51,343 nucleotides of DNA, from the IMG/VR virus record IMGVR_UViG_3300011912_000001. The stretch is one strand, 5' to 3'. The position numbers and the translations under genes are program-made. The DNA comes from an uncultured virus (IMG/VR IMGVR_UViG_3300011912_000001). Its lineage: Duplodnaviria; Heunggongvirae; Uroviricota; Caudoviricetes. Positions 8,996 through 43,399 of the stretch are shown here, in pieces. The stretch's first letter is position 1, and each line of letters begins with the position of its first letter. The notes beneath the pieces were generated by a model that did not search any database, was not told the DNA's origin, and saw nothing but the letters and a program-made list of their open reading frames with translations.

Positions 8996-9035
8996 ACGTT
9001 TTGTTCCTCCAGTAATTGATTGTAGNNNNNNNNNN

Positions 9036-12426: not shown

Positions 12427-13167
12427 TTACCTTCTTTCTCCATGTTGAATCAGACCTAAATGCGTGTTTAGTTCTTGTAAGACTTCCACGATGTCTCCGT
12501 ATGAACGGAATGACACCTTCCCATCATAGGGTGTACCTGATTTCGTAATGATAGCGGTCCGTGCCCGGTTACTCAGTCCAATCTCTAGTAAATCACTGAA
12601 AGGTCGGACTTCAAGAGAGGTACCAACGACAAGAATAAAGTCGGCGGTCAAGCACGCCGCCATCGCATCTGTCCACTGAGAGACAGGGATATCTTCTCCG
12701 TAGAGAACAACAGGCGGGCGAATGGTTCCTTCAAAACATTTTGGGCACCGGGTATCGTCTACGGTGTTGTAATAAAGAGAAGCATACCGTTGCGCACAAT
12801 GATTACATTCGAAGTATCGCATGTGTCCATGCATCTCAATCGCATGTTTCCCGTGGTAACCATCAATGTTTTGGGNNNNNNNNNNGATGATGGTGGCGCC
12901 GTACCGCTGTCGCCACTCTTCTAAGATGTCATGTCCCGGGTTCGGATGATAACGACGGATGGCTTGGGCTCGTTCCCGGAAGAAATCCCGGAACTCTGGA
13001 GTTCCGATTTTTGAGGCATGGGAAATCTCAAGCGGGTCTCGCCCGTCCCATAAGCCTCCGTTCGAACGGAAATCAGAGAGCCCACTGGCGGTGGACATCC
13101 CTGCTCCCGTCAACACCACAATCCTTTTTGCATCATGAATGGCTTGCACAAACTGTTGTAATGACAT
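12427..13167 (-). CDS. cobB: Sir2/CobB NAD-dependent deacylase (spans N gap)
   Basis: LTGAGMSTASGLSDFRS, QNIDG, EMHG, CxxC..CxxC, RPPVVLYGE, VGTSLEV. Confidence 0.92.
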   Translation of the reverse strand: MSLQQFVQAIHDAKRIVVLTGAGMSTASGLSDFRSNGGLWDGRDPLEISHASKIGTPEFRDFFRERAQAIRRYHPNPGHDILEEWRQRYGATIIXXXXQNIDGYHGKHAIEMHGHMRYFECNHCAQRYASLYYNTVDDTRCPKCFEGTIRPPVVLYGEDIPVSQWTDAMAACLTADFILVVGTSLEVRPFSDLLEIGLSNRARTAIITKSGTPYDGKVSFRSYGDIVEVLQELNTHLGLIQHGERR

Positions 13168-13178
13168 ATGCAATCTCC

Positions 13179-19301: not shown

Positions 19302-22300
19302 TTAGACTTCAAATAGATGTTTGTTGACACGTTTCGGAATCGTGAGCTTATCGAGGATAAGGCTTCGGTCATCCCGTTGCGGGTTGTACTTGAAGTTGCA
19401 TTCGACTTTGACAAGCATGTCTTTTTTGATGATGCCGCGCACGTCCGCATACGTCATCGGGAAGCAGACCATGTCTCGTTGTCCTTCCAAGAAATCGATT
19501 TTGATGAAGGCCATCGGGTCGCCTTTCTTGGTCAAGATTTCACGGACATCGGCGACAATACCACTAGAGAGAATCTTTTCACTATCAGGTACATTGTCCC
19601 AATCAACGGGAACGCCGATACCATCCAGTGGATGACCGCTCAAGTAGACACTGAGATAATGCTTTTCGGTTTCGAGTTTGGTCTTGTTGTTGAAGTGGTC
19701 GATTTCCGATGTTAAATCTTCATCGTAACCACGGAGCAGGTATGTCTGCTGTAGGATTTCATAGCGATTGAAGTGGTCCGATACCATCGTATCCAGTGCG
19801 CCTGATAAGGCAAGGGCTTTGATGGCGGCTTTGTTCAAGCCTTTCTTCGGTACACGTGCGGTCATGTCCTCTAAATCAAGGAATGGGCGCGCTTCCAGCA
19901 CATTTTGGATGGCGACGGCACCAAATCCTTTAATGGCTTCGAGACCAAAACGAATGTCATTACCTTCAATCGTAAAGCCTAGTTTCGAATTGTTGACGTC
20001 CGGCGGTAGAATCTTAATACCGTACGTCTTCGCATCTTGGATATACGCGGTGACCTTTGCTTCATCATCACTGAAGACACTCAAGAGAGCGGTAAAGAAT
20101 TCAGCAGGATAATACGTCTTGAAGTAAGCGGTCTGATAAGTCAAAAGTGAATACGCCGCCGCATGACTTCGATTGACGATTGCACCGCCTCTTTCGAGGT
20201 ATTTTAACTCTGCTCAAAGCAGACGGACTAGACTATATAATCACCCTCTATTGAGGGGACAGGCGCTTCGATTTAAGGGGTTCTCTCCCACCATTCAAAT
20301 AGAATGGCCCTACTCCAGTTGCACTTTTTTGTGTGGGTGTGCCAGTTAAGGGATAGTCGTTGAACCTTCTTCCTCATGTGTAGGAAGCTTGGATGCGTTT
20401 AGTTGATTGCCCAATCTTCTTCGCTGTTACCATACCGGACGCATTGCCGCCCGCCACCGCCTTATTACTAAGACGGCTTGGTGGAAGAAGCTCTAAGGGT
20501 CGTCCCCGCAATTCACCTGTTATTTCGGTCTGCAAGTTGCCTTGCAGTAGGACCTTCGTATAAGTGAGAGAATTTCTCTTCTTTACGAGGCAATGAAACA
20601 GTGGAATCCGCATACATATACTGATGAAGTTTACGCATATTGTGTCCTCCGGCAATGCAAAGGTAAATCATCTGTTCACTTTTTGAAGCCTTAATCGTGG
20701 ATGTAATATCCAAGCTCTGAAGAAGCTCTTTCAATTCGTGAATAAATGGGATGTTACCGATGATTTGCGCATTGAGATATGCGTATTTCTGTTTGTTAGT
20801 GGAAGCAGTCGTATTTACAAGAAATACAGAACCGTCGGCGTCAAAGTATCCCCGAATGTAATGCGGCATTAAATGAGTAGGAATTTCAGGAATTCCATCA
20901 TCATTTGCTTTTCTGCCATACTTGCGAATATCTTGACACATTTTCTTACGACAAATGGTAAGCCGCGCTTGTTCTTTGCTTCCTTCATAACCACCTCTAG
21001 TTGTTGCAATGTTCCCTGTGTATTCTACAGTGTTTGCAAAACGTCGGATGTGGTCTTGGTCAATGGATGTAAGAATCACCGTCCACGGTGCTTTCTCTGA
21101 AATGTATCCATCTCCAAACATGAACCCTAACCAGTATGCTTTTTCTTGTGAATCAATTGTCTCAAAGAAATCCGTGTTCACTGTAATTGCCATGTTAAAT
21201 CCCTCCCTACTAAAAGTTTACTATGGAAGGGTTTCAATAGCAAGTGGTTTATACGTTTTGTAATCCATAACCCACAAAGGGCTTGATAAGCTCAATTAAC
21301 TTATCAGCAGTGGCTTCATCGTAGCCTTGCTCTAATGTTCTAGCATGCAATTCTGGTAAAACTTGGTCCATTACTTTCTGGGATTTTTTTCCTGTAGCTT
21401 TCCTGAGCGAGTCCTGCTGTCCTTCAGTATAGCCACCAAATACACCAGCAAGTTGCATCAATTGCTCTTGGTAAATCATGATACCGAACGTTTTCTTTAA
21501 GACAGGTTCAGCGTCAGGATGGAAGTAAGATACGTCTCGCATACCATTCGCCCGCGCCTGATATTCTGGAATTTCATCCATCGGCCCGGGACGATATAAC
21601 GATAATCCTGCAATCAATGATTCGAAGTTGACGGTATCTAAGCCCTTAAACACATTGGACATTCCACTGCTCTCGATTTGAAAAATTCCCAGTGTTTTTC
21701 CATTTCCGATGGTCGAGTACACGGCATCATCATCGGGTTCAAAGTTATCAGGGTCAAGGGCAACACCATGACGTTCTTTGACCAAGTCCCGGGCGATGGC
21801 GACGACGGACAAGTTCTTCAGTCCTAGTAAGTCAAACTTCAAGAATCCGAATTCTTCAAGGGTCGGTCCATCATACTGACTGACCATCTCCCCTTCCTTC
21901 CCACGCATAACAGGGACGGTGCTTCCAATGCTAGAAGGGGCAACCAAAATTCCACAAGCATGAACGGAAGACGAGCGGGGCATCCCTTCTACTTTCAGCG
22001 CCATCTCAAAGAGTTCAGGATATTGTTCTGCATACTCTTGGATGGTCGGGACTTCCTCTAAACATTTTGAAATCGCATACGGTTTACCAAAGACAACAGG
22101 TACATGCTTATTGATTTCGGTGATGATAGTATGGTCGATGTTCAGACCACGACCAATATCTTTAAGAACAGCTTTCGTTGATAAAGAGGTATAGGTTCCG
22201 ATTTGAGAAACCCGGTCATGTCCATATTTCTCAACCAAATAATCAATGATTTCATGACGACGAAGGTAATCGAAGTCACTATCAATATCAGGGAATCCGG

Positions 22301-23926
22301 GCCGCTCTGGATTTATAAAGCGACTGAATAGCAAGTCGTNNNNNNNNNNTCGTATTTAATCGGGTCTAAGTTCGTAATCCCTAAGACGTAAGAAACAAGA
22401 CTTCCGGCGGCGGAACCACGTCCCGCACCGACTAGAATGCCATTCTCCCGGGCATAGTTGATATAATCCCAAACAATGATGAAATAAGCAGAAATGTTTT
22501 TGTCTTTGATGACCTTTAGCTCATAATTGAGACGGTCGATGTACGTCTCCATGTCCAAGTCTTTTTCAAGACATTTGCGGAAGAGACCGTCAGAAGCCAG
22601 TTGACGCAAATAGGTATCAAAATCATAACCGGCTGGTACATCATAGACCGGGAATTTGATTTCCGTATTATCTAAAGCGACGTTACAACTGTTCGCCACC
22701 ACCATCGTGTTCAAGACCGCTTCATAGGGAATCCCTTTGCCAAGGATTTCTTCCGTGCTCATGAAATAACAGGAATCATAGACACTGATGTCTCCCGCGT
22801 CCTCACTTTTCCCGATAGTAGTCAGGGAAGCGTGAATCGCTTTTTCTTCTTTCTTGAGCATGTGGACGTCGGTCGTACAAATAAGTGGGATGTCCATTTC
22901 TTTTGAGAATTCCATTAAGCGTTTATTGACATAATGCTGTTCGGGTTGGTCGCTAGGTTGAACTTCCAGATAGAATTCATCGAGGACGTCCGCATAGAAC
23001 TTGATTAAGTTTTTAGCGACTTTATCATACCCTTTGAGTAGACATTGACTGATGTCACTTCCTAAACAAGCACTGGTTCCGATAAGACCGGTCCCGTGTT
23101 CTTTTAAGAGTTTATAATCAATCCGTGGTTTGCGGTAGAAGCCATCCAAGAAACCAGAAGCACAAAGAGCAAGTAAGTTCTTGTAACCTTCGGTGTTCTT
23201 CGCAATCAATAATAAATGATTCATTTGCGGACGCCACTGGAAGAGGTTGTAGACATTCTTCTTCTCACGTACACAAAAACGCATGTTGTTACGAGTAGAA
23301 GCAGATTTACGAGCCGTGATTTCTTTTTTGAGCTTGGTAACAGGGAGTGGGGGTTCTTCAAGTTTCTCCCGTTCGGTTTTGATTTGATTCGCAAAGAAGA
23401 CATCGACTTGTGTCATCATCAATTTTGCTAACTTCTTATCTCCGATTTCAAGAAGACTCGTCAGGTTCTGGTCGAGCATCTCTTGCTTCGGGACATAGAA
23501 CAGACGCGGTTTGCCTTCTTCATCGAGTTCATAAGAAACTTTTTCAAAGTCTGCCTTTTTCCATGTGTGATGGGGCGTGATATACGCTTCCATCCCTAGA
23601 ATCGGTTTGATTCCAGCATCGATGGCGGCATGATAGAATTTAAAATGACTTGCCATGGTGCCGTGTTCACTGACACCGACAGCGGGCATGCCATACTCTT
23701 TGGCTAACGGCATCAAGTCATCAATGCGGGCGAACCCGTCAAGAAGACTGCCGTCAGGCGTATGCAAATGTAAATGAATTTGTTTTAAATCCTGTGAAAA
23801 ATCAGATAAACCTTTTTCTTGAATCAATTGTCGAAAATGGTCGCGGTTTTCTTCTAGAATCCGTTTCCCTTTTTCGATGTAGTCGGTTTCAGGCGCTTGG
23901 GCCCCAAAGGATAAATCCTGTACCAA
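19302..23926 (-). CDS. dnaE: DNA polymerase III alpha subunit; exons ~23926-21263 and 20176-19302 (~1170 aa spliced; start approximate)
   Basis: PHP (HLHLHT, GMEAY, TTDVH), [27 protein letters not shown]; spliced junction gives [15 protein letters not shown]-terminal OB fold. Removing the 10 N plus duplicated TCGT at 22340 restores the frame. Confidence 0.95.
20177..21262 (-). mobile_element. Group I intron in dnaE
   Basis: 5' exon ends in U (GGA T), intron ends in G; core AATTGCGGGGA, TTCAACGACTA, ATATAGTCTAG; P3 ACAGGTG/CGCCTGT; splicing rebuilds a TTC Phe codon. Confidence 0.92.
20513..21193 (-). CDS. Intron-encoded two-motif LAGLIDADG homing endonuclease
   Basis: [12 protein letters not shown] and [12 protein letters not shown]; own RBS GGGAGG; internal promoter TTGCTA-17-TAAACT (21243-21215). 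Confidence 0.9.
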   Translation of the reverse strand: MAITVNTDFFETIDSQEKAYWLGFMFGDGYISEKAPWTVILTSIDQDHIRRFANTVEYTGNIATTRGGYEGSKEQARLTICRKKMCQDIRKYGRKANDDGIPEIPTHLMPHYIRGYFDADGSVFLVNTTASTNKQKYAYLNAQIIGNIPFIHELKELLQSLDITSTIKASKSEQMIYLCIAGGHNMRKLHQYMYADSTVSLPRKEEKFSHLYEGPTARQLADRNNR

Positions 23927-24186
23927 CGACAACACCACCTCATATATATTTGAGAAAACTTCCCATACGTTAAGTGTACCGTATAGAGAACATTTAATCA
24001 TCAAATAAAGAAAGCCAAGGAGCCCCCATCATTGAAAAGGCCCTTGGCTATTGAAAAATAAAAAGAAAAAACCCGACCGAAGTCGGGCTCCCGCTTTATC
24101 GCAACTACCACATTACGAAAAAGAAGCGTTCTCATGAAGAACTACATCCTTAGCGTAATCTGTTGTCAAAAGATTGTCAATATCGC

Positions 24187-24703: not shown

Positions 24704-25387
24704 TTAGGTATCCGCATTCAAGGAAGATTGGACAAGTCCATTTGCCGTTTCATTCTTCTCACGCGGTATCCATACAATCTCCACGTTTTCAAACTGAGAA
24801 ATCAAAAAGCGTGCTTCTTGCATGAGACGTGAGATGGTTTCGATACGTGTACGGTTGATGCCACGCATTTGATTATAGAGAATTTCAGAGTCCGTATAGA
24901 CGGTCATACGAATCCTGAAAATATCCATGTTCGTATGAATCAGCGTCCGCAAGCAAGAATTGAGTGCTTCGTATTCTGCCGCGTGACTACTGACAAGTTG
25001 GGTCGTAGGTGTTTCCGTCTCCTTGTATGTCCCATCAGGTTCATAATAAGGAGGTAAGCGGAAAACATCTTTTTGAATGATTTCGCCATTACTTTTGAGC
25101 ACGTACGCACTAGCGGCGGCTGGTGTGATGTTCGTGTCAGGGTGGCGAACGCCTCCGTCGATGTTACATTCCAAATATTTACGACCATGCAATCGGCGAA
25201 TTAATTCAAACTGCTCTTTGAAATCAGTGTCTTCTTCACAAAAAAGATTGGATAGTTCTAAAAATTCAGGATAACTTCGACTGAGACTTTCGCGCACCGG
25301 AAGGCGCTCGACGTCATGCGGAATCGTATAATACTCTTTCGCAAGCGCCAAGACGCAATCCTTGAGGAACGCTTTAGAAGTCTCCAT
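24704..25387 (-). CDS. RNase HI-like protein with N-terminal extension
   Basis: IDGG, AEYEAL, YTDSE, WIPREKNETAN (last acidic residue appears to be D to N). Confidence 0.85.
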   Translation of the reverse strand: METSKAFLKDCVLALAKEYYTIPHDVERLPVRESLSRSYPEFLELSNLFCEEDTDFKEQFELIRRLHGRKYLECNIDGGVRHPDTNITPAAASAYVLKSNGEIIQKDVFRLPPYYEPDGTYKETETPTTQLVSSHAAEYEALNSCLRTLIHTNMDIFRIRMTVYTDSEILYNQMRGINRTRIETISRLMQEARFLISQFENVEIVWIPREKNETANGLVQSSLNADT

Positions 25388-25392
25388 TCAGC

Positions 25393-26370
25393 TTACCAAG
25401 GTGCATCAGCAGATTCGACTTCTACAGCTCGTGTGCGCGGTTTACGTGATACTCGTTTCTTTGGTGCTGGAACCACAACTTTTGAAGGGAAGAACTGAGA
25501 AATCGCTGGGTTGTCAGGTGTCATCTGAAGAGCAGACATGAAATCTTCTTCCGTTGTCGAAAGCGTACGGAATGTCATGTTGTTGAGGTTATAGAAGATA
25601 GCGAAATGGTCGATGCCTTTCGTCAAATCTTGTGGTTTCGCAAGAATTTTGTTTGCAAAACCAAAGATGAGATTCGCCGCCGTCATGTTTGTGTGGATGT
25701 TTTGAGGAGCGGACTCCGCATTTTCCGCACATGACATTTCCGTTGGCAATTTATCTGAACCGTCCAACATCGACGGGAACATGTCAATGATTGATGGTGT
25801 CGACGGCGTCACCGGCGCACCAAAACGTTCGTTTCCAAACGTCGTCTCAAGATTTTGATTACGTACCATTTGAAGCGACAATACCACTTGTCCAGTCATT
25901 TCTTCGTTTCCGCTGGAAATAAAATATGACTTCGTATACGAGCGGTGTGCTTCTTGAATGAAGGCACGTGTTTTGTTGTTGTCGACACAATCGATGAAAA
26001 CAGGGCATGCTGGGTTTTCGTCATCTTGATGGACTAGACCACGAAGCATGTCGACCTCGACGATATAATCTGTCACATAGTCAATNNNNNNNNNNGCCAT
26101 GACTTCTGCTTTGTTTTTGTTCATGTCACGGTCGACGAAGTTTTGACGAATCAAGTTCTTTTCTTCGACAATGTCACCGTCAATGATAGTGAGGTAATGC
26201 GGGGTTAACCCTTCAAGTCCACGGATACGGTTTTGAATCGCAATTTGACGAGCAAGTTGAGGAATCAAATATCCACCGGTACCACCGGCACCAACGACGA
26301 TGAAGTGTTTCGATTGTGCATACATACCTGATAATTGTAAGCGCGGGCTAAACAGATTTGATAAGTCCAT
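25393..26370 (-). CDS. ThiF/E1-like Ubl-activating enzyme (PRTRC ThiF type; spans N gap)
   Basis: VVGAGGTG, DGDIVEEKNLIRQ, NKAEV, DCVDN, candidate catalytic Cys in SCAE. Confidence 0.9.
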   Translation of the reverse strand: MDLSNLFSPRLQLSGMYAQSKHFIVVGAGGTGGYLIPQLARQIAIQNRIRGLEGLTPHYLTIIDGDIVEEKNLIRQNFVDRDMNKNKAEVMXXXXIDYVTDYIVEVDMLRGLVHQDDENPACPVFIDCVDNNKTRAFIQEAHRSYTKSYFISSGNEEMTGQVVLSLQMVRNQNLETTFGNERFGAPVTPSTPSIIDMFPSMLDGSDKLPTEMSCAENAESAPQNIHTNMTAANLIFGFANKILAKPQDLTKGIDHFAIFYNLNNMTFRTLSTTEEDFMSALQMTPDNPAISQFFPSKVVVPAPKKRVSRKPRTRAVEVESADAPW

Positions 26371-26424: not shown

Positions 26425-29055
26425 TTACATCAAACGGGATGGGTCTTTGTAGTAGGCACTGAGTTCCCACGGATATTGAGAAGCTGTCAATTCGTCAAAA
26501 ACGCTTTGAATAGCTTCCACAACGTCAGGTTTTTCTTCGGTTTCGTCTTGAAATCGAAGCTCCACCTCTGATTCGCCGGGACGAAAATCCAGTAAAGAAT
26601 CTTGAGTAGATGTTCCTGTTCCGTAGTAACCATAGTCTTCATCTTCTGGATAGTAAGATTGAGGATTACTTGCCGTGCCGACGGCCGAACCGACCTCCTT
26701 TAGATTTGCTTGCCCCTTTCCCAAGCGGTTCAATTCCTCCGCTTGCGCCGCACGTGCTTTTGCTAAACGTGCTTCTTCTTTTGTCCAGAGGTCAAGTCGT
26801 GTTGCATATTGTTCGCCTGTTTCCGCCGCGCGTTGAATCGGACGATAATTCGTATGCCCAAGAGCAGGACACGTACCCACACCGGGTTTACGCTCGACGT
26901 ACATTTTTCTTACAGGGTCCCAATCTTTCCCTGCATTAGACGACCAAGCAGTCGAAGCAGGAGCGGTGTATCGCTTTGAGTGTTGTTCCATCCAATCAGC
27001 AGGGTATTCGAGTTGCGCCCAAGGACCTTGGTAATCCAAGTATTCCTCTTCCTCTTCTGTCGTGCCTTGTCCGACGCTGATAGCTGTTTCGAGCAAGTCG
27101 AGGTCACCTTCTACCATGTAGTCTGTGACGATACGAGAAGACGTCTTCATGCGTGGAATGTCAAAGACGTATGACATTGGTACGATAACGCGTGTGTTAC
27201 CGACAACATAACGCATTGTGAATGCTGGTTGTTTGTCGAGAACACGTCCCCATACAGCATAGAACTGTGTCATGTTTTCATTGTCATTATCTGTACCAGA
27301 GAAGAACGCGTTCATCGTGTTCCTTTTTGTTACTTCGGAAATTTATCATGTTTTCTGGACATGAAAACTGTCGCATCTTGATAAATGATATTGTAGAATT
27401 TCTGAACATCGGCTTTGGCGCCGAATCGCCACATGTGGATACCATTCGAGAACGTCATATATCCTTTAATGTCAAACCATTCAGAGATAGGAAGAAGAAA
27501 CTCTTCTGTTCCTCTGAAGCAGACATAGGGACGTTTCTGAGTACCACTTGTGACAACCATCATGATTGAACCATCTCCGTCAAAATAACCACGGATAAAA
27601 TGATGTTTTAAGTGTTCAGGGATATGCTGAATCATCGAGTCCATGGTGATAGATTTACGTTCAGTCAAACCATACTTCATTAAGTCAGAAGTCAGTTTTT
27701 TACGAGTGAATGTAATTCGTACCATGTTGTCTCGTTTTAAGTGAATAATTGGTTGCTGGGCTTTCATGGCAACTTTCATTTTTTCTAGGATATCAATGTC
27801 AGTGTTTTTGATAGTGATACTCAAATACACGACTCCGCGTCCATTGTCTTGAAGACAACCGTCAGCGGCAATGAATCCTAAGAAATAAGCTTTTTCTTCT
27901 GTATCAATCGTTTCAAAGAAATTTTCATCAAAAGAATAGAAAGAACGTTTTTGATGATTGCCATACTTTTTAACGATTGAAGAAACAGCTTGTTCATATT
28001 CACCAAAATGTTGAGCAATCTTATACACGCTCATACCCGATTCATGCATTTTCACGATATCGTCTTTCAAGTGCTCCAGTTTAAGTGGCAAAATAATCAG
28101 CTCCTGTATATGCATTAGTTGAGTCCTAATATCATAATACAATGAGTAGTGTATTCTGTCAATTTCCGGGGGTAGTCATTTCTGCTACCCTCTCCCCGTT
28201 CAAAATCAAAGCATATAGGGGAGAGCAGACTATCGCATACTGACCCTAGACCTCCGCTCCAACGGTCTTGCTGTCTAGGTAGTCTCCTTCGCTTAGTCGT
28301 TCACGGTCATAAAGGGATAGATTCCCACCATTGAATTATTTCACAACGATTCAATGTCGTTCCGCCCTGTCTACCGGCTTTCGGCATTCCAAGTCAATCA
28401 GAAGGAGTTTTACAGCCACATTCATTTAATGGCTGTGGATTTCGAGCAAGAGAGATAAGTTCTCTCGCAACCATGGCACCATCTTATCCATGTGGAACTC
28501 AGAAAGTGCGGCAGAGTTTGTTTGTTTTGGGCAATACATGACAAGTTGTCCGTCGACAGTCAGACCTTTGACTGGAGTTCCGTCTTCATATGTCTGTGGA
28601 AGGGCAACATTGTTATGGTTCCAGAAGAATAAGTTCGACGCTTCCGTATGGTCACGACGTTCAACATCACGGTACCAGCTTAAGATTTGGATGAGGTATT
28701 TACCCGGGATTTTAGGAATTGTTAAATGAACACCGGCTTCAAGTGCACCGACGCCCGGTAACTTCGCTTCATACTTTTCGACTTCTTCGATGAAGAGACC
28801 GATAGGTTTTTTCGTGATTTTAAAGAGACCATTGCTTGCGGCAACGAATGTGACTTCCTTCTCCAAACGTGGGATAAGGTCTTCAATCGTTTTGCCGGCA
28901 AAGAGACGGTCTGTAACTTGTGCGGCAACCGCTTCTTCGATTTGAAGGCGAAGAGCTTTTTGTGCTTCTGTTTCAACAGGTTTCGTTGTTTTTGTTGCAG
29001 TTGTAGTTGTAGTAGTTGGAAGTCCGATAGCGGCTTTTGCTTTTTGTTTAGACAT
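26425..29055 (-). CDS. JAB/JAMM metallo-isopeptidase (PRTRC protein A-like); exons 29055-28429 and 27321-26425 (~507 aa)
   Basis: Splicing rebuilds EIHSH-NTMNAFF-S-GT-D (HxH-x7-S-x2-D); upstream Glu in HTEA; long acidic C-terminal extension. Confidence 0.9.
27322..28428 (-). mobile_element. Group I intron in the JAB gene
   Basis: Exon ACAGCCAU pairs with IGS GUGGCUGU with U.G at the splice site; P3 CTCCTTC/GAAGGAG; P7 GACTA/TAGTC; terminal G at 27322. Confidence 0.92.
27330..28091 (-). CDS. Intron-encoded LAGLIDADG homing endonuclease
   Basis: YFLGFIAADGCL and FIRGYFDGDGSI; TTG 28091 after AGGAG; internal promoter TTGACA-17-TATTAT (28162-28134). Confidence 0.9.
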   Translation of the reverse strand: MPLKLEHLKDDIVKMHESGMSVYKIAQHFGEYEQAVSSIVKKYGNHQKRSFYSFDENFFETIDTEEKAYFLGFIAADGCLQDNGRGVVYLSITIKNTDIDILEKMKVAMKAQQPIIHLKRDNMVRITFTRKKLTSDLMKYGLTERKSITMDSMIQHIPEHLKHHFIRGYFDGDGSIMMVVTSGTQKRPYVCFRGTEEFLLPISEWFDIKGYMTFSNGIHMWRFGAKADVQKFYNIIYQDATVFMSRKHDKFPK

Positions 29056-29089: not shown

Positions 29090-29455
29090 TTACCAGAAAA
29101 ACGTGAACGCAACCAATGAAGATTCGTCCAACGTTTCTGGTACTTCGATTTTGACTTCTTTGATGGCATAAGGCATATCGTTATCATGGTCGATAAAAAT
29201 GCGTTGTAAGGCAACGATATCATGAATGGTTAACCCGTCAAATGAGATATAAGAGACGGAGACCGTCATCGATTCTTTCATATCTTCTAGCACTTTTCGT
29301 CGCATTTGATGATAAGCGACTAAAGCATTTGATGATAAAGAAACCGGTGGTTGGTATCTGGCATTATGGGCAAGGTCGCTCCAGTCTTTCTCATACTGGA
29401 ACGAATCCCGCCATTTCCGCAAAAAAGCAGTTTTTGCTTTTTGAAAGAGGGACAT
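29090..29455 (-). CDS. Hypothetical protein inside the Ubl operon
   Basis: 121 aa, GGGAGG RBS. Confidence 0.7.
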   Translation of the reverse strand: MSLFQKAKTAFLRKWRDSFQYEKDWSDLAHNARYQPPVSLSSNALVAYHQMRRKVLEDMKESMTVSVSYISFDGLTIHDIVALQRIFIDHDNDMPYAIKEVKIEVPETLDESSLVAFTFFW

Positions 29456-29476: not shown

Positions 29477-30283
29477 TCAGTTCTCTTCAACAAAACGATT
29501 GAAGAAACTACCGACAGTTTTATCAACTGGAACTAACTGAGCTTCCGGGAACCGGGCGTCAGGATTCGCAAGCAATTCCGTATGCAAGTGATGGAACATT
29601 TGGTCCATGTGTTGAATGCGTTGGTTCTCACGAATCGATTCGTGTGGAGAAGCAAAACGACGGAAACGTCCGTCATCCAAGTCATTGTTAAATGCGGCGG
29701 CAAAGAATTGAGATTGTAAAGAAATCAATGCGGCAGGTGTTGGCATGACAGAATTCAAGTTACCAGACCAGCAAATGTTACCGCGACCGTACACGTTCGT
29801 AAATGGAGCACGGAACAAGGCATCATTTAAGCCTAAGACTTGGTGTTTAATCGCATGCACATAGACATGTCCACGAATTTTACGTGTGTCGTTGGATGTG
29901 ATTTCAGCGACGACGAACCATGCAAGAGCAGGACGTGGGATTTCCATTTGGGCGATACTACCACCATTTGTGAACGTGAAATTGTAATCATCGGCATCGC
30001 CATCATAGCGTCCCCGGTGTTCGTACTTAATTTCTTGACGGCCCGGAGGCGTCGTAATCATGTAGTACTCTTTGTTTCCTTTACGAGCAAACAATCGAGT
30101 TCCCCAGTCTCCCGGCAGGAGTGGAGTACGCATAGCAGTTTGCTGTTCAATGATTTGAGAAAGAGACTCGATAGTAATCGGTTTTTTATTACGAACAGCA
30201 CCGTTCACGATTTCAACGTAAGCGGCGCCGTTCTCAAGGGTAATGACAGCTTTATTGGTTTGAGCAGAAACTTGAGTGGACAT
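29477..30283 (-). CDS. Prokaryotic E2-like protein (Prok-E2 family D / PRTRC protein B-like)
   Basis: TPLLPG, PALAWF, LFRAPFTNVYGRGNICW (candidate catalytic Cys), FFAAAFNNDL. Confidence 0.8.
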   Translation of the reverse strand: MSTQVSAQTNKAVITLENGAAYVEIVNGAVRNKKPITIESLSQIIEQQTAMRTPLLPGDWGTRLFARKGNKEYYMITTPPGRQEIKYEHRGRYDGDADDYNFTFTNGGSIAQMEIPRPALAWFVVAEITSNDTRKIRGHVYVHAIKHQVLGLNDALFRAPFTNVYGRGNICWSGNLNSVMPTPAALISLQSQFFAAAFNNDLDDGRFRRFASPHESIRENQRIQHMDQMFHHLHTELLANPDARFPEAQLVPVDKTVGSFFNRFVEEN

Positions 30284-31960: not shown

Positions 31961-32294
31961 TTAGACAAAGTCATCTTCTTCCAGTTCGGTTGCGACTGGT
32001 TCGATGCGACTTAATCGGAGTAACATACTTTCTTCTCGTTGTAAGGTACGAGAAGAATAATCACGAAATGATGAGATAAAATCACTGATGCTCATACCAC
32101 GGTTCAATGATTGAAGATTCGAGAGCGCCTGTTCAACGTTCGTATCCTCTGAAGGGAAAATACCTTCGAACCGATGGTGTTCACGATTAGAAGAAGCTTN
32201 NNNNNNNNNNNATAATTTCATTTTGATTGCTACGAAACTCTTCTGCTGTTTGCGCAATAGGTTCCATTGATGGTTCAACAGTAGGTTCTGCCAT
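31961..32294 (-). CDS. Hypothetical protein (spans N gap)
   Basis: ATG 32294 (MAEPTVEPS...) after AAAGGAG; continues past the gap in the 31961 frame. Confidence 0.6.
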
Positions 32295-32406: not shown

Positions 32407-32925
32407 TCAGTTCCCTTTTGTACCCGCACGAACAACAAAGTGGAACTCTCCGTTACGGAGTTCAACTGACGCACCCGAAAGTTCTGGGTAGATTTGCTTC
32501 AACGCGTCCTTTGCTTGTTCTGGTGTTGTACCAGCCGGAAGGTCGATACGCGTGCCGTTGTAAACAGCGACAGCGCCCGCACCTTTCGTACCTGCACGGA
32601 CGACGAAGTGGAATTCGCCGTTACGAAGCTCGACTGATGCGCCTGAGAGCTCAGGGTAGATTTGTTTCAATGCATCTTTCGCTTGCTCCGGTGTAGTACC
32701 AGCTGGTAAATCAATGCGTGTTCCGTTGTACACTGCAACCGCACCAGACGATTGCGCGCCTTTAGTACCCGCTTTGACTTCGAACGTGATTGTGTCGCCG
32801 TTTTGTACTGCACGAGCGTTTGCAAGTTCTGGGTAGATTTGCTTGAGGGCATCTTTCGCCGCTTCCGCTGTAGTACCTGCTGGTAAATCGATAGTTGTAC
32901 CGTTGTAGATTGCTTTCATTGACAT
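32407..32925 (-). CDS. Tandem tri-ubiquitin-like precursor (Prok_Ub / PRTRC protein C-like)
   Basis: Three ~55 aa repeats YNGT.IDLP...QIYPEL...AGTKG; last repeat followed by a single Asn. Confidence 0.9.
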   Translation of the reverse strand: MSMKAIYNGTTIDLPAGTTAEAAKDALKQIYPELANARAVQNGDTITFEVKAGTKGAQSSGAVAVYNGTRIDLPAGTTPEQAKDALKQIYPELSGASVELRNGEFHFVVRAGTKGAGAVAVYNGTRIDLPAGTTPEQAKDALKQIYPELSGASVELRNGEFHFVVRAGTKGN

Positions 32926-42735: not shown

Positions 42736-43399
42736 TTAAAAACGGGGAAACTCTTCGACTTTTTCACCAATGCGTACAGGGGGAATGCCTTGAAGAGAAG
42801 GTAAGGTCGGCAGGGCGGCGATTTCACGGGCCGCAAGCTCCAAGGCTTCAATCGATTGGCGGGACCGGTCATCATTGCGGTCATCATGGGATTGAATCAA
42901 TTTCATGTGTGCCGTGTAACAAATGGATTGAATCCGTTGATGGTAGACAGGGTCAGGGTGTTTTAGGTCATACGTCTGAACGAGTTCAGGGACAAAGACA
43001 CTGAAAAAGCGACGCTCATGGTCTGCTAGATAATGTTGTCCTTCTTCCCATGTATCTTCAGGAAAAATGAGGTTCAGCTTGACCGTCGATGTCAAAAAAT
43101 CATTCCATAGCTGAATGGCTTCGACATGTTCTGGGTGTTGTTTTAACCATTTATACAGGACCATGTTCTNNNNNNNNNNAGGTGTTGGCAATCGCTAAAT
43201 ACTTGCGCATCACATGATACGGCAAGGGAAAAGAAGGAGGTGGCGGAGGAAGCTCTTGTCTGCTACGTTCAAGTTGTCGTTCCAAAAGAATATCATGAAC
43301 TTCTTTTCCTTCAGGTAGATTCTTAAACTTGGTATAAATAAAAGGGACGCTGACGACTCCTCCTGTGAGCAATGCCGCCGCCATGATTTCAAATAACAT
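42736..43399 (-). CDS. Membrane-anchored hypothetical protein, probably one gene across the N gap
   Basis: Hydrophobic N-terminus at 43399; ORFs on both sides meet at the gap 43170-43179. Confidence 0.55.

What the first reader, a model, noticed from the sequence alone, without database searches (positions are those of the whole stretch)
27322..28428. Group I intron with LAGLIDADG endonuclease inserted in the HSH active-site motif of a JAB peptidase gene
Seen: exon 1 stops at ...EIHSH|TAA; the intron has a clear P1 (ACAGCCAU/GUGGCUGU), P3 and P7; exon 2 resumes NTMNAFFSGTD and completes the JAMM motif. Automatic annotation would show two broken hypotheticals. Established: bacterial and phage group I introns mostly occupy conserved sites of tRNA, nucleotide-metabolism, replication or virion genes. 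Inference: the Ubl system is conserved and common enough in this element family to sustain homing, and splicing gates Ubl maturation.
Basis: partly seen in the sequence, partly recalled or inferred. Interest (0 to 1): 0.75.

Follow-up and report, generated by a model that had tools for sequence, protein, structure and literature searches.

The report
Mobile intron splitting a phage JAB gene
A self-splicing-type (group I) intron that carries its own homing endonuclease gene sits exactly inside the zinc-binding active-site motif of a ubiquitin-like-system peptidase gene of a jumbo phage; the kind of element is well known, but this host gene and site appear to be new.

Summary
Confirmed. On the minus strand a 1107-nt insert (28428..27322) interrupts a JAB/JAMM peptidase gene between ...EIHSH and NTMNAFFSGTD. 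Removing it rebuilds H-x-H-x7-S-x2-D in frame, and the two halves abut residues 210/211 of an uninterrupted homolog.

The insert has a full group I layout: P1 with U·G at the 5' splice site, P3-P9.2, and a terminal G. Rfam's group I model misses it. A covariance model built only from 8 related introns in other genes finds this one site in the 51 kb window at 81.9 bits, E=7e-19. The family structure is backed by covariation.

A 261-aa two-motif LAGLIDADG endonuclease gene lies in the P9.2 loop.

Among 66 homologous alleles, 51 are intact and 15 break at this codon boundary, scattered over the tree. That pattern fits a mobile intron.

The gene belongs to a PRTRC-like Ubl/E2/JAB/E1 cassette of a jumbo phage related to Bacillus jumbo phages and phage-like plasmids.

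Splicing and homing were not shown, because no RNA data were found. Regulatory "gating" of Ubl maturation has no support.

Verdict: a new member of a known kind, of moderate interest.

The parts
28429..29055 (-). JAB (PRTRC_A-like) gene, exon 1: 209 codons, MSKQKAK...LLLEIHSH. It carries the catalytic Glu (TEAS) and the HxH of the JAMM motif.
   Evidence: ORF. BLASTP to the intron-less homolog L001:3371-4747 covers residues 28-210 at 48% identity, 9e-56, and ends exactly at HSH. The start at 29055 is inferred from homolog N-termini and from the end of the upstream ORF at 29090.
28429..28436 (-). P1 5' strand (last 8 nt of exon 1, ACAGCCAU); the 5' splice site follows U28429.
   Evidence: Sequence. 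8 bp with the guide sequence, U·G at the splice site.
27322..28428 (-). Group I intron, 1107 nt.
   Evidence: The boundaries give an in-frame junction that matches residues 210/211 of the homolog.
28412..28419 (-). Internal guide sequence, P1 3' strand (GUGGCUGU), preceded by L1 UAAAUGAAU (28428-28420).
28226..28413 (-). Ribozyme core with these helices:
- P3 CUCCUUC 28407-28401 / GAAGGAG 28290-28284
- P4 CUUG 28393-28390 / CAGG 28369-28366
- P5 UGCCG 28386-28382 / CGGUA 28376-28372
- P6 GCGG 28365-28362 / CCGU 28306-28303, with an inserted P6a/b
- P7 GACUA 28298-28294 / UAGUC 28232-28228, plus GC 28292-28291 / GC 28236-28235
- P8 28283-28273 / 28251-28239
   Evidence: cmsearch with R2 (built from 8 relatives, window excluded): 81.9 bits, E=7.3e-19, model 1-120 of 120. 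Helices read from alignment A3. Covariation in the family.
28171..28225 (-). P9 hairpin (CUCUCCCC 28225-28218 / GGGGAGAG 28197-28190) and P9.1 hairpin (28189-28171, stem GGUAG/CUACC, conserved loop CAGAAAUGA).
   Evidence: Fold and comparison with L008, L009, L015 and L031. These keep the same loop with compensating stems.
28161..28168 (-). P9.2 5' strand (CGGAAAUU).
   Evidence: 8-bp perfect complement to 27343-27336, in the slots where relatives have a short P9.2 hairpin. 6 of 20000 shuffles and 0 of 727 ORF-internal windows match it.
27330..28115 (-). Homing endonuclease gene in the P9.2 loop: 261 aa, an N-terminal HTH-like region plus two LAGLIDADG motifs (…YFLGFIAADGC…, …FIRGYFDGDGS…).
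   Evidence: - Pfam LAGLIDADG_3 3.5e-8; HTH_SB 7.7e-6, below its cutoff.
- phrog_4645 3.8e-57.
- 30-38% identity to annotated intron-encoded endonucleases of Staphylococcus and Bacillus phages.
- 12 of 18 listed differences to the X1 allele fall on third codon positions.
27336..27343 (-). P9.2 3' strand (AAUUUCCG), overlapping the last codons of the endonuclease gene.
27322..27335 (-). Conserved 3' tail AAGUAACAAAAAGG, ending in the terminal G (27322).
   Evidence: The same tail (A GUAACAA[A/U]A..G) follows P9.2 in L009, L015 and L031/L032.
26425..27321 (-). JAB gene, exon 2: 298 codons plus stop, NTMNAFFSGTD…. It carries the Ser and Asp of the JAMM motif.
   Evidence: BLASTP to L001:3371-4747 starts at residue 211, 38% identity, 2e-24. 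Weak PRTRC_A match, E=0.0095.
32407..32925 (-). Context: Ubl protein (PRTRC_C-like).
   Evidence: TIGR03738, 52.1 bits against a cutoff of 45.95.
29477..30283 (-). Context: E2-like protein (Prok-E2_D / PRTRC_B-like).
   Evidence: Pfam PF14460 6.9e-11; TIGR03737 1.7e-11, below its cutoff.
25393..26370 (-). Context: E1-like ThiF protein (PRTRC_ThiF-like).
   Evidence: Pfam ThiF 3.2e-12; TIGR03736 1.5e-22, below its cutoff.

Best explanation
The insert is a mobile group I intron. The JAB gene is transcribed through it, and the RNA folds into a compact group I core: P1, then P3 to P9.2, with no P2 and no P7.1/7.2.

**Splicing (inferred, not shown).** By the established group I mechanism, a free guanosine bound at P7 attacks after U28429, the U of the U·G pair in P1. 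The terminal G (27322) then takes its place, and the exons are joined CAU|AAC. That restores one 507-codon reading frame with a complete JAMM site: Glu and HxH come from exon 1, Ser and Asp from exon 2. Without splicing, translation stops at the first intron codon (UAA).

**Homing (inferred, not shown).** The intron's own gene sits in the P9.2 loop with its own ribosome-binding site. It encodes a single-chain, two-motif LAGLIDADG endonuclease. It presumably cuts intron-less JAB alleles of related phages or phage-like plasmids at the HSH codons, so that the intron is copied in by repair.

**What is shown.** The anatomy, the exact junction, membership of an intron family found in other phage genes, the intact endonuclease gene, and the patchy distribution of breaks at this site.
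For: **1. Junction.**
- Exon 1 ends at residue 210 and exon 2 starts at residue 211 of the uninterrupted homolog L001:3371-4747.
- The joined reading gives HxHx7Sx2D.
- 51 of 51 full-length homologs have that motif uninterrupted.

**2. Ribozyme.**
- Model R2, built from 8 related introns in other genes with the window excluded, gives one hit in the whole window: 28226-28413 (-), 81.9 bits, E=7.3e-19.
- The same model hits 21 places in 25 sources and none of the 8 loci that had matched a search pattern only by chance.
- On the MAFFT alignment of the 8 relatives, 95.8% of cells pair. 18 of 33 pairs (P3, P4, P5, P6, P7, P8) change on both sides. 0 of 500 shuffles reach this, and slid controls pair at 37-44%.
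- P1: in 9 of 9 introns the last exon base is U opposite G, with six different exon sequences matched by the guide.
- One relative (L031) matches Rfam RF00028 over the full model at 36.2 bits, E=6.7e-6.

**3. 3' end.**
- The tail GUAACAAAAAGG| and the P9.1 loop are shared with relatives.
- An 8-bp P9.2 closes the 800-nt ORF loop.

**4. Endonuclease.**
- Pfam LAGLIDADG_3 and phrog_4645 matches.
- Relatives are annotated as intron-encoded in recA and DNA polymerase genes.
- GC is 0.37 against 0.47 in the exons.

**5. Mobility.**
- 15 of 66 alleles break at or 3-9 residues after HSH.
- The label needs 11 changes on a 63-row tree, at least 6 of them forced by well-supported branches.
- A freshwater-metagenome contig carries the same intron with at most 68 differences in 1107 nt. 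Its exon stretches differ at 22 or more of 149 and at 57 of 284 positions.
Against: - **No RNA evidence.** No run on record as RNA held the stretch, and no spliced joint was seen.
- **Rfam is negative.** The group I model gives no match to this intron even at E<=10. It reports only 1 of the 8 relatives used for the model, and that one below the gathering score.
- **P10 is not evident.** No clear pairing of the guide region with the first bases of exon 2 is visible (by eye).
- **Vertical descent is possible locally.** The three closest broken alleles (window, P0001, P0002) form one clade (SH-aLRT 98-99), so within that clade the intron may simply be inherited.
- **Other broken alleles unseen.** The DNA of the other 14 could not be fetched, so what interrupts them is unknown. 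Three of them read on for 3-9 residues after HSH, so their inserts do not begin with UAA as this one does.
- **Possible separate translation of exon 2.** An AGGA lies 5 nt upstream of the in-frame ATG at 27315-27313, so separate translation of the second half cannot be excluded from sequence alone.
Confidence: 0.87

Rival explanations
1. Split gene without splicing. The insert is a decayed intron or an endonuclease cassette, and the JAB is made as two polypeptides (1-209, and a second from the ATG at 27315) that either assemble or are inactive.
For: - An in-frame ATG with AGGA 5 nt upstream lies two codons into exon 2.
- Gene callers report the halves as separate proteins in 14 other records.
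- No spliced RNA was seen.
Against: - The ribozyme core is complete and scores 81.9 bits against a model of relatives.
- P1 pairs with this exon's own last 8 bases.
- The terminal G gives exactly the in-frame junction.
- The AGG of the supposed ribosome site is part of a tail conserved in relatives in other genes.
- The Met is a conserved residue of the JAB motif in 51 of 51 intact homologs.
- The split would separate the zinc ligands HxH from Asp.
Confidence: 0.06
2. Dead gene. The intron has lost activity, or the phage no longer needs the JAB, and the locus is a decaying pseudogene.
For: Splicing is untested. P10 is weak.
Against: - Both exons keep long open frames with all catalytic residues.
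- The endonuclease ORF is intact, and its differences to a second allele concentrate on third codon positions: 12 of 18, binomial p=0.004.
- That second allele shows no indel over 1334 nt.
- The flanking E1, E2 and Ubl genes are intact.
Confidence: 0.04
3. Regulatory gate. Splicing efficiency is controlled, and it times or limits JAB production and hence Ubl processing.
For: Only the trivial dependence of full-length JAB on splicing. The intron lies in the active-site codons.
Against: - Active-site positions are the usual targets of homing endonucleases because they are conserved (passages of PMC2504315).
- 51 of 66 alleles work without any insert.
- Broken and intact alleles alternate among near-identical proteins, for example P0056 beside P0015 and P0067 beside P0050. 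That fits a selfish element rather than a conserved regulator.
Confidence: 0.05

Closest known systems
Group I introns of the same RNA family in phage ribonucleotide reductase genes (L007, L013, L026, and L012-type copies with an ORF in P8), a Sporomusa prophage tape-measure gene (L009) and a tail-tube gene (L031)
   Same: - Same core sequence and helices P3-P8, with shared single-stranded joints.
- Same P9.1 loop and 3' tail in L008, L009, L015 and L031.
-.
   Different: - The host gene and guide sequence differ.
- This copy has long insertions in P6 and P8 and carries a LAGLIDADG gene in L9.2. The RNR copies have no ORF, or a different ORF in P8.
- No member of the family was seen in a JAB gene elsewhere in the DNA I could fetch.
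Intron-encoded LAGLIDADG endonucleases of Bacillus phage 0305phi8-36 (ORF036, 'mobile intron protein', in the DNA polymerase III alpha gene) and of Staphylococcus Silviavirus phages Romulus/Remus (in recA)
   Same: Same endonuclease family (phrog_4645). 38% and 31% identity over 77-92% of the protein. All sit in phage group I introns as annotated in the records.
   Different: Different host genes. No enzyme of this subgroup that I found has a solved structure. The cleavage site of this one is unknown.
Prophage and phage group I introns of the Bacillus cereus group (Tourasse & Kolstø 2008, PMC2504315; passages read)
   Same: - Introns in tape-measure, tube, RNR, recA and DNA polymerase genes.
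- Related copies at different sites keep P3-P7 and differ in P1, P2, P8 and P9.
- They insert in the most conserved stretch of the host gene.
   Different: The passages found hold no JAB/Mov34 host gene ('Mov34': 0 occurrences). Their introns are classed IA1/IA2, whereas this core lacks P2 and P7.1/7.2. I did not assign a subclass.
[quoted passage not shown]
   Same: Same four components. PRTRC_C is above its cutoff, and PRTRC_A, B and ThiF are the best NCBIfam matches. The same gene order is found in Bacillus jumbo phages and 215-240 kb plasmids.
   Different: Three of the four matches are far below the equivalog cutoffs. The JAB here is about 500 aa with a long C-terminal extension. No ParB-like gene was noticed. 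The cassette is phage-borne.
PhiPA3 gp210, an intron endonuclease used in competition between co-infecting jumbo phages (PMC11620839; search listing and start of abstract only)
   Same: A homing endonuclease in a jumbo-phage intron. It offers a possible benefit beyond selfish spread.
   Different: Different endonuclease, host gene and phage group. No competition data exist here.

Membership tests
Group I intron | P1 helix between the end of the 5' exon and an internal guide sequence, with U·G at the 5' splice site | tested here: met
   ACAGCCAU/GUGGCUGU, 8 bp, U28429 opposite G28419. The same rule holds in 9 of 9 family members, across six different exon sequences.
Group I intron | Conserved core P3-P8 including the P3/P7 pseudoknot, supported by covariation | tested here: met
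   - Family model hit at 81.9 bits, E=7.3e-19.
- 18 of 33 pairs show changes on both sides, 95.8% of cells pair, and 0 of 500 shuffles reach this.
- 24 of 26 pairs on the model-fitted alignment that includes the window (this leans towards the model).
Group I intron | Terminal G at the 3' splice site; exon ligation restores the host reading frame | tested here: met
   G27322. The junction equals residues 210|211 of an intron-less homolog.
Group I intron | Match to Rfam RF00028 at or above the gathering score (50 bits) | tested here: not met
No match at gathering or at E<=10. Relative L031 reaches 36.2 bits, E=6.7e-6, and the other relatives scanned show nothing at E<=1.
Group I intron | Guanosine-dependent self-splicing | not testable with these tools
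   No RNA holder was listed, and no spliced joint appeared in the contigs laid.
LAGLIDADG homing endonuclease | Profile match and two LAGLIDADG motifs, each with the acidic residue | tested here: met
   Pfam PF14528, 34 bits against a cutoff of 22.5. The motifs …GFIAADGC… and …GYFDGDGS… are in the translation. phrog_4645 3.8e-57 over residues 14-258.
LAGLIDADG homing endonuclease | Cleavage of the intron-less target site | not testable with these tools
   Candidate targets are the HSH|H/N-TM codons of intact alleles.
JAB/MPN+ (JAMM) metallopeptidase | Glu … H-x-H-x7-S-x2-D motif | tested here: met
   TEAS plus HSH in exon 1, and NTMNAFFSGTD in exon 2. The motif is contiguous in 51 of 51 full-length homologs.
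JAB/MPN+ (JAMM) metallopeptidase | Pfam Prok-JAB (PF14464) at or above its cutoff | tested here: not met
   No Pfam family on either exon. The intron-less homolog L001 reaches 18.4 bits against a cutoff of 25. 18 of 51 homologs carry a precomputed PF14464 hit.
JAB/MPN+ (JAMM) metallopeptidase | MPN fold | tested here: met
   An AlphaFold2 model of the intron-less homolog (mean pLDDT 81) finds Rpn11, a bacterial Ubl-deubiquitinase (8tyx_B), CSN5, AMSH/Sst2 and Cap3 as top Foldseek hits, E from 2e-4. This was tested on the homolog, not on the window's own joined protein.
PRTRC system | PRTRC_A, B, C and ThiF proteins at equivalog cutoffs | tested here: not met
   C: 52.1 against 45.95 (met). A: 15.5 and 29.5 against 101.8. 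B: 44 against 131.45. ThiF: 80.1 against 144.75. The cassette is therefore PRTRC-like, not a curated member.
PRTRC system | Associated ParB-related protein | tested here: inconclusive
   No ParB-like family appeared among 60 window ORFs in the PHROGs scan at E<=1e-5. No dedicated search was made.

The most novel reading that the evidence does not exclude
The HSH| codon boundary of the phage-borne JAB gene is a live homing hot spot. About a quarter of known alleles (15 of 66) are interrupted there, in a pattern scattered over the gene tree.

The interrupting intron belongs to a promiscuous ribozyme family. That family has colonised at least six unrelated phage gene contexts by changing only its guide sequence, and it has picked up different endonuclease genes in different loops. 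The near-identical L1 of this intron and of an RNR copy, where L1 pairs with the RNR exon 2, would then be a relic of such a jump.

The endonuclease may also act as a weapon between co-infecting jumbo phages or phage-plasmids, by cutting the rival's Ubl-system peptidase gene at its active-site codons.
Probability: 0.25. Interest if true: 0.6.

Novelty: new member of a known kind. Interest (0 to 1): 0.4.

Why it matters
- **Annotation.** Gene callers report this gene as two unrelated hypotheticals, and 14 such halves are already in public protein sets. Counts of phage Ubl systems will therefore miss or mis-score about a quarter of the JAB genes in this family.
- **Detection.** Rfam's group I model misses the family. 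It was found here in RNR, tape-measure, tail-tube and JAB genes, with up to three copies on a 1.4-kb contig. Phage intron surveys based on that model alone undercount it.
- **Biology.** The gene and this exact peptide stretch appear conserved and widespread enough among jumbo phages and phage-like plasmids of Bacillus-type hosts to keep a homing element going. That is indirect evidence that the Ubl cassette matters to these elements. The intron-plus and intron-minus alleles give a natural pair for homing and phage-competition experiments.

Tried and rejected
- **Rfam.** No family matched at gathering score on the whole window. No Intron_gpI match at E<=10 on 27200-28550; the six matches listed were chance snoRNA, lncRNA and IRE hits.
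- **blastn against GenBank phages.** Only an 80-nt stretch of the endonuclease gene matched; the ribozyme and the exons did not.
- **RNA evidence.** No RNA holder was listed. Two runs labelled RNA-Seq were judged 'probably DNA' when laid, and no spliced joint appeared.
- **PDB sequence searches.** The JAB profile gave 0 hits at E<=1. The endonuclease gave nothing significant.
- **RNAalifold.** On the relatives it found P3-P6 but cannot show P7, which is a pseudoknot. P7 was counted separately.
- **Model R1.** It was built with P8 typed one column out of register and never used. R2 replaced it.
- **First P9.2 shuffle test.** It used the wrong slots and was meaningless. It was redone.
- **Pattern scans.** The 19-nt core pattern found nothing in IMG/VR. 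Of its 6 hits elsewhere, 3 were chance (L005, L006, L010). Of the 19 hits of the 17-nt pattern, 8 loci were chance (7 distinct sequences; L014 and L019 are identical) and 11 were introns.
- **DNA of the other broken alleles.**
  - No own genome is held.
  - IMG/VR gave 9 JAB loci whose matches all span the site, so they are intron-less by span; I did not inspect each one.
  - Three Bacillus-type plasmids examined are intact.
  - A locus could not serve as a centre for relatives, and plasmid handles have no relatives.
  - The look-up of encoding contigs is closed.
- **Intein.** Rejected: the first codon after HSH is a stop, and the insert's ORF has its own start.
- **Group II intron.** Rejected: no such Rfam match and no reverse transcriptase in the insert.
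- **Single-origin reading.** The first tree suggested one origin. It was overturned once the shorter proteins were searched.
Full report
**What is in the sequence**

The gene lies on the minus strand.
- An ORF ends ...L L L E I H S H with CAT at 28431-28429, followed directly by TAA.
- 1107 bases further on, after G27322, the same frame resumes: AAC ACG ATG AAC GCG TTC TTC TCT GGT ACA GAT (N T M N A F F S G T D). It runs for 298 codons to 26425.
- Read across the gap, the peptide is HSHNTMNAFFSGTD, the JAMM signature H-x-H-x7-S-x2-D.
- The catalytic Glu (…TEAS…) and the two His are in exon 1. The Ser and Asp are in exon 2.
- Between the exons lies an ORF with two LAGLIDADG motifs.

**Is the junction real?**

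A related 251.5-kb viral contig (L001) has the same gene order and an uninterrupted 458-aa homolog.
- Exon 1 aligns to its residues 28-210 (48% identity, 9e-56), ending on HSH.
- Exon 2 aligns from residue 211 (38%, 2e-24). Nothing is missing or duplicated.
- In a search of the large protein collection, 51 of 51 full-length relatives (280-492 aa) carry the motif uninterrupted.
- An AlphaFold2 model of the uninterrupted homolog (mean pLDDT 81) finds JAMM/MPN deubiquitinases as its best structural matches, E from 2e-4: Rpn11, a bacterial Ubl-deubiquitinase, CSN5, AMSH/Sst2 and Cap3.
- Profile evidence is weak. Prok-JAB scores 18.4 bits, below its cutoff of 25. PRTRC_A scores 5e-7. The PDB sequence search found nothing.

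**Is it a group I intron?**

Rfam says no. There is no RF00028 match at gathering score on the window or at E<=10 on the region.

By hand, the 5' 270 nt fold into a canonical core:
- P1: ACAGCCAU/GUGGCUGU, with U·G at the splice site
- P3: CUCCUUC/GAAGGAG
- P4: CUUG/CAGG
- P5: UGCCG/CGGUA
- P6: GCGG/CCGU, with an inserted arm
- P7: GACUA/UAGUC
- P8, P9 and P9.1

The P7 strands lie in stretches that resemble the classical R and S elements. That resemblance is recalled, not tested.

To test the fold independently, I looked for relatives with short core patterns. Real relatives turned up in several other genes:
- class II ribonucleotide reductase genes, at TNP|C (L007, L013, L026 and eight further copies with an ORF in P8);
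- a tape-measure gene in a Sporomusa chromosome (L009);
- a tail-tube gene (L031/L032);
- three unassigned contexts (L008, L015, L029).

RNAalifold on eight of them, without the window, predicted P3-P6 by itself.

On their MAFFT alignment the full structure, including P7 as a pseudoknot and the outer P8 pairs, holds well:
- 95.8% of cells pair.
- 18 of 33 pairs change on both sides.
- 0 of 500 shuffles reach this, and slid controls pair at 37-44%.

A covariance model from those eight sequences (R2) finds one place in the whole window: 28226-28413 (-), 81.9 bits, E=7.3e-19, over the full model. Across 25 sources it finds 21 places. It finds none in the eight loci that had matched a pattern by chance.

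On the model-fitted alignment that includes the window, 24 of 26 pairs show changes on both sides. That alignment leans towards the model.

P1 covaries with the exon. In 9 of 9 introns the last exon base is U opposite G, with six different exon sequences. For L008, L015 and L029 the splice sites are my own assignment.

One relative (L031) matches RF00028 over the full model at 36.2 bits, E=6.7e-6, below the gathering score.

**The 3' end and the endonuclease gene**

In L009, L015 and L031, P9.1 is followed by a short P9.2 hairpin and the tail A-GUAACAA(A/U)A..G|. P9.1 has a conserved loop …CAGAAAUGA… with compensating stems.

The window has the same P9.1 and the same tail (AAGUAACAAAAAGG|), but its P9.2 is different. 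CGGAAAUU (28168-28161) pairs with AAUUUCCG (27343-27336), and this helix encloses the ORF. That 8-bp match, in exactly those slots, arose in 6 of 20000 shuffles and in 0 of 727 windows inside the ORF. So the endonuclease gene sits in the P9.2 loop, and its last codons form the 3' strand.

The ORF most likely starts at the ATG at 28115, which has AGGA 9 nt upstream. Evidence on its identity:
- It matches Pfam LAGLIDADG_3 and phrog_4645 over residues 14-258.
- It is 30-38% identical to proteins annotated as intron-encoded endonucleases in recA of Staphylococcus Silviavirus phages and in the DNA polymerase III alpha gene of Bacillus phage 0305phi8-36.
- Its GC content is 0.37 against 0.47 for the exons and the ribozyme.

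**Distribution**

- A search with exon 1 found two proteins that end at ...HSH.
- A search for shorter relatives of the intact protein found 15 more short proteins. Nine end exactly at HSH. Three run on 3-9 residues past it. Three are C-terminal pieces that begin at or just before the conserved Met.
- Several come from long contigs (up to 234 kb), so they are not contig-end truncations.
- With the window, that makes 15 broken and 51 intact alleles.
- On a quick maximum-likelihood tree of the exon-1 region, the broken state needs 11 changes, at least 6 of them forced by well-supported branches. The shuffled mean is 13.6, and 16 of 500 shuffles are as low. Broken alleles sit beside near-identical intact ones.
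- The tree has 63 rows. I left out P0051-P0053 as very long branches, and the C-terminal pieces.
- The window, P0001 and P0002 form one clade (support 98-99).
- I could not fetch the DNA of the other broken alleles, so whether they hold this intron is unknown.

One direct case of the same intron elsewhere exists. An 11.9-kb freshwater-metagenome contig covers 27173-28506 without indels.
- There are 90 differences in all, and at least 22 of them fall in the 149 exon-2 bases. At most 68 therefore fall in the 1107-nt intron plus 78 exon-1 bases.
- Further into exon 1 there are 57 differences in 284 bases, and a 103-base stretch is too diverged to align.
- The intron is thus at least 93.9% identical, while the exons are about 80-85% identical.
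- Of the 18 listed differences inside the endonuclease gene, 12 are at third codon positions (p=0.004).
- The same call showed shorter contigs in wastewater runs with variant P5 and P6 arms and different upstream sequence. These are further family members in other contexts.

**Context**

The window is phage-like, with all genes on one strand. Its DNA polymerase is about 60% identical to those of Bacillus jumbo phages KLEB27-3, WH1 and Edson.

The JAB gene sits in a cassette of these parts:
- Ubl (PRTRC_C, above its cutoff)
- two unknown proteins
- E2 (Prok-E2_D / PRTRC_B-like)
- a 121-aa protein
- JAB
- E1 (ThiF / PRTRC_ThiF-like)
- an RNase H-like protein

The same order occurs in those phages and in 215-240 kb Bacillus and Cytobacillus plasmids, where the JAB gene is intact. 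The cassette corresponds to the Ubl+JAB+E1+E2 operon type listed for B. cereus and B. thuringiensis by Iyer et al. 2006 (PMC1779556, passages).

**How it most likely works**

The mechanism is the standard group I pathway and standard homing, as set out under Best explanation. The anatomy, junction, family membership and distribution are shown. Splicing, cleavage and homing are inferred.

The active-site position is what one expects of a homing element that targets the most conserved stretch of its host gene (PMC2504315, passages). Nothing supports regulated 'gating'.

**Novelty**

Group I introns with LAGLIDADG genes in phage genes are textbook material. The pattern of related cores with different guide sequences and peripheral arms at different sites has been described for Bacillus prophages (PMC2504315, passages).

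A JAB or Ubl-system host gene was not found in print:
- 'group I intron' + 'JAMM' + 'phage': 0 papers.
- 'group I intron' + 'JAB domain': 0 papers.
- 'PRTRC': 45 papers, of which none of the 15 listed titles concerns a phage intron.

These searches cover only the held library. I file the finding as a new member of a known kind, of moderate interest.

Noticed in passing
window about 20177-21262 (-); endonuclease ORF 20513-21193 (-): A second intron splits the DNA polymerase III alpha gene between ...GYG and FNRSHAAAY. The junction was read by eye. It carries a paralogous LAGLIDADG gene (phrog_4645 7e-44; 32% identical to the JAB-intron enzyme), and its ribozyme lies 3' of the ORF. Rfam RF00028 gives only 23.4 bits, E=0.0035, at 20208-20614. 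Model R2 does not hit it, so it belongs to a different intron family. Bacillus phage 0305phi8-36 has an annotated 'mobile intron protein' in the same gene.
   Followed up: partly
window 22313-22349: The DNA polymerase ORFs 22313-24004 and 21249-22334 overlap by 22 nt in different frames, although their PHROG profile positions are contiguous (36-427, then 429-790). A masked run of 10 N (22340-22349) lies at this junction, so a frameshift, a further small insert and masking cannot be told apart.
   Followed up: no
L008 159-289, 475-597, 772-887; L015 1-114, 388-573, 1593-1723 and 2225-3131: Two short contigs each hold three copies of the same intron-family core (R2 scores 48-103 bits). L015 also holds an unrelated group I intron that Rfam does detect (78.8 bits). 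The family can be very dense locally.
   Followed up: partly
L012, L017, L018, L021, L022, L024, L025, L028 (just after P3'): The RNR copies of the intron family carry an ORF beginning MIVYWIRE… inside P8. The window's copy instead carries a LAGLIDADG gene in L9.2, and L007, L013 and L026 carry none. The same ribozyme is thus paired with different or no endonuclease genes. The family of the P8 ORF was not tested.
   Followed up: no
window 28420-28428 compared with L026 (intron start): The window's L1 (UAAAUGAAU) is almost the same as L1 of the RNR intron L026 (AAAUGAAU). In L026 its last four bases can pair with the first bases of RNR exon 2 (GUUC), forming P10. In the window no such pairing with exon 2 (AACACG) is evident. 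This may be a relic of a move from an RNR site.
   Followed up: no
window 9026-9035, 12876-12885, 22340-22349, 26086-26095, 32200-32211, 43170-43179: Six runs of 10-12 N (masked stretches). One lies inside the ThiF (E1) ORF and shows as XXXX in its translation.
   Followed up: no
window 24704-25387 (-): An RNase H-like protein (Pfam RVT_3 2e-11; NCBIfam RNase HI 3e-15) directly follows the E1 gene. This holds here and in the Bacillus and Cytobacillus plasmids, where it is annotated 'reverse transcriptase-like protein'. It looks like a conserved, unexplained member of the cassette.
   Followed up: no
window 12427-13173 (-): A Sir2-like protein (phrog_2162, 1.7e-31) is encoded in the phage window.
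   Followed up: no
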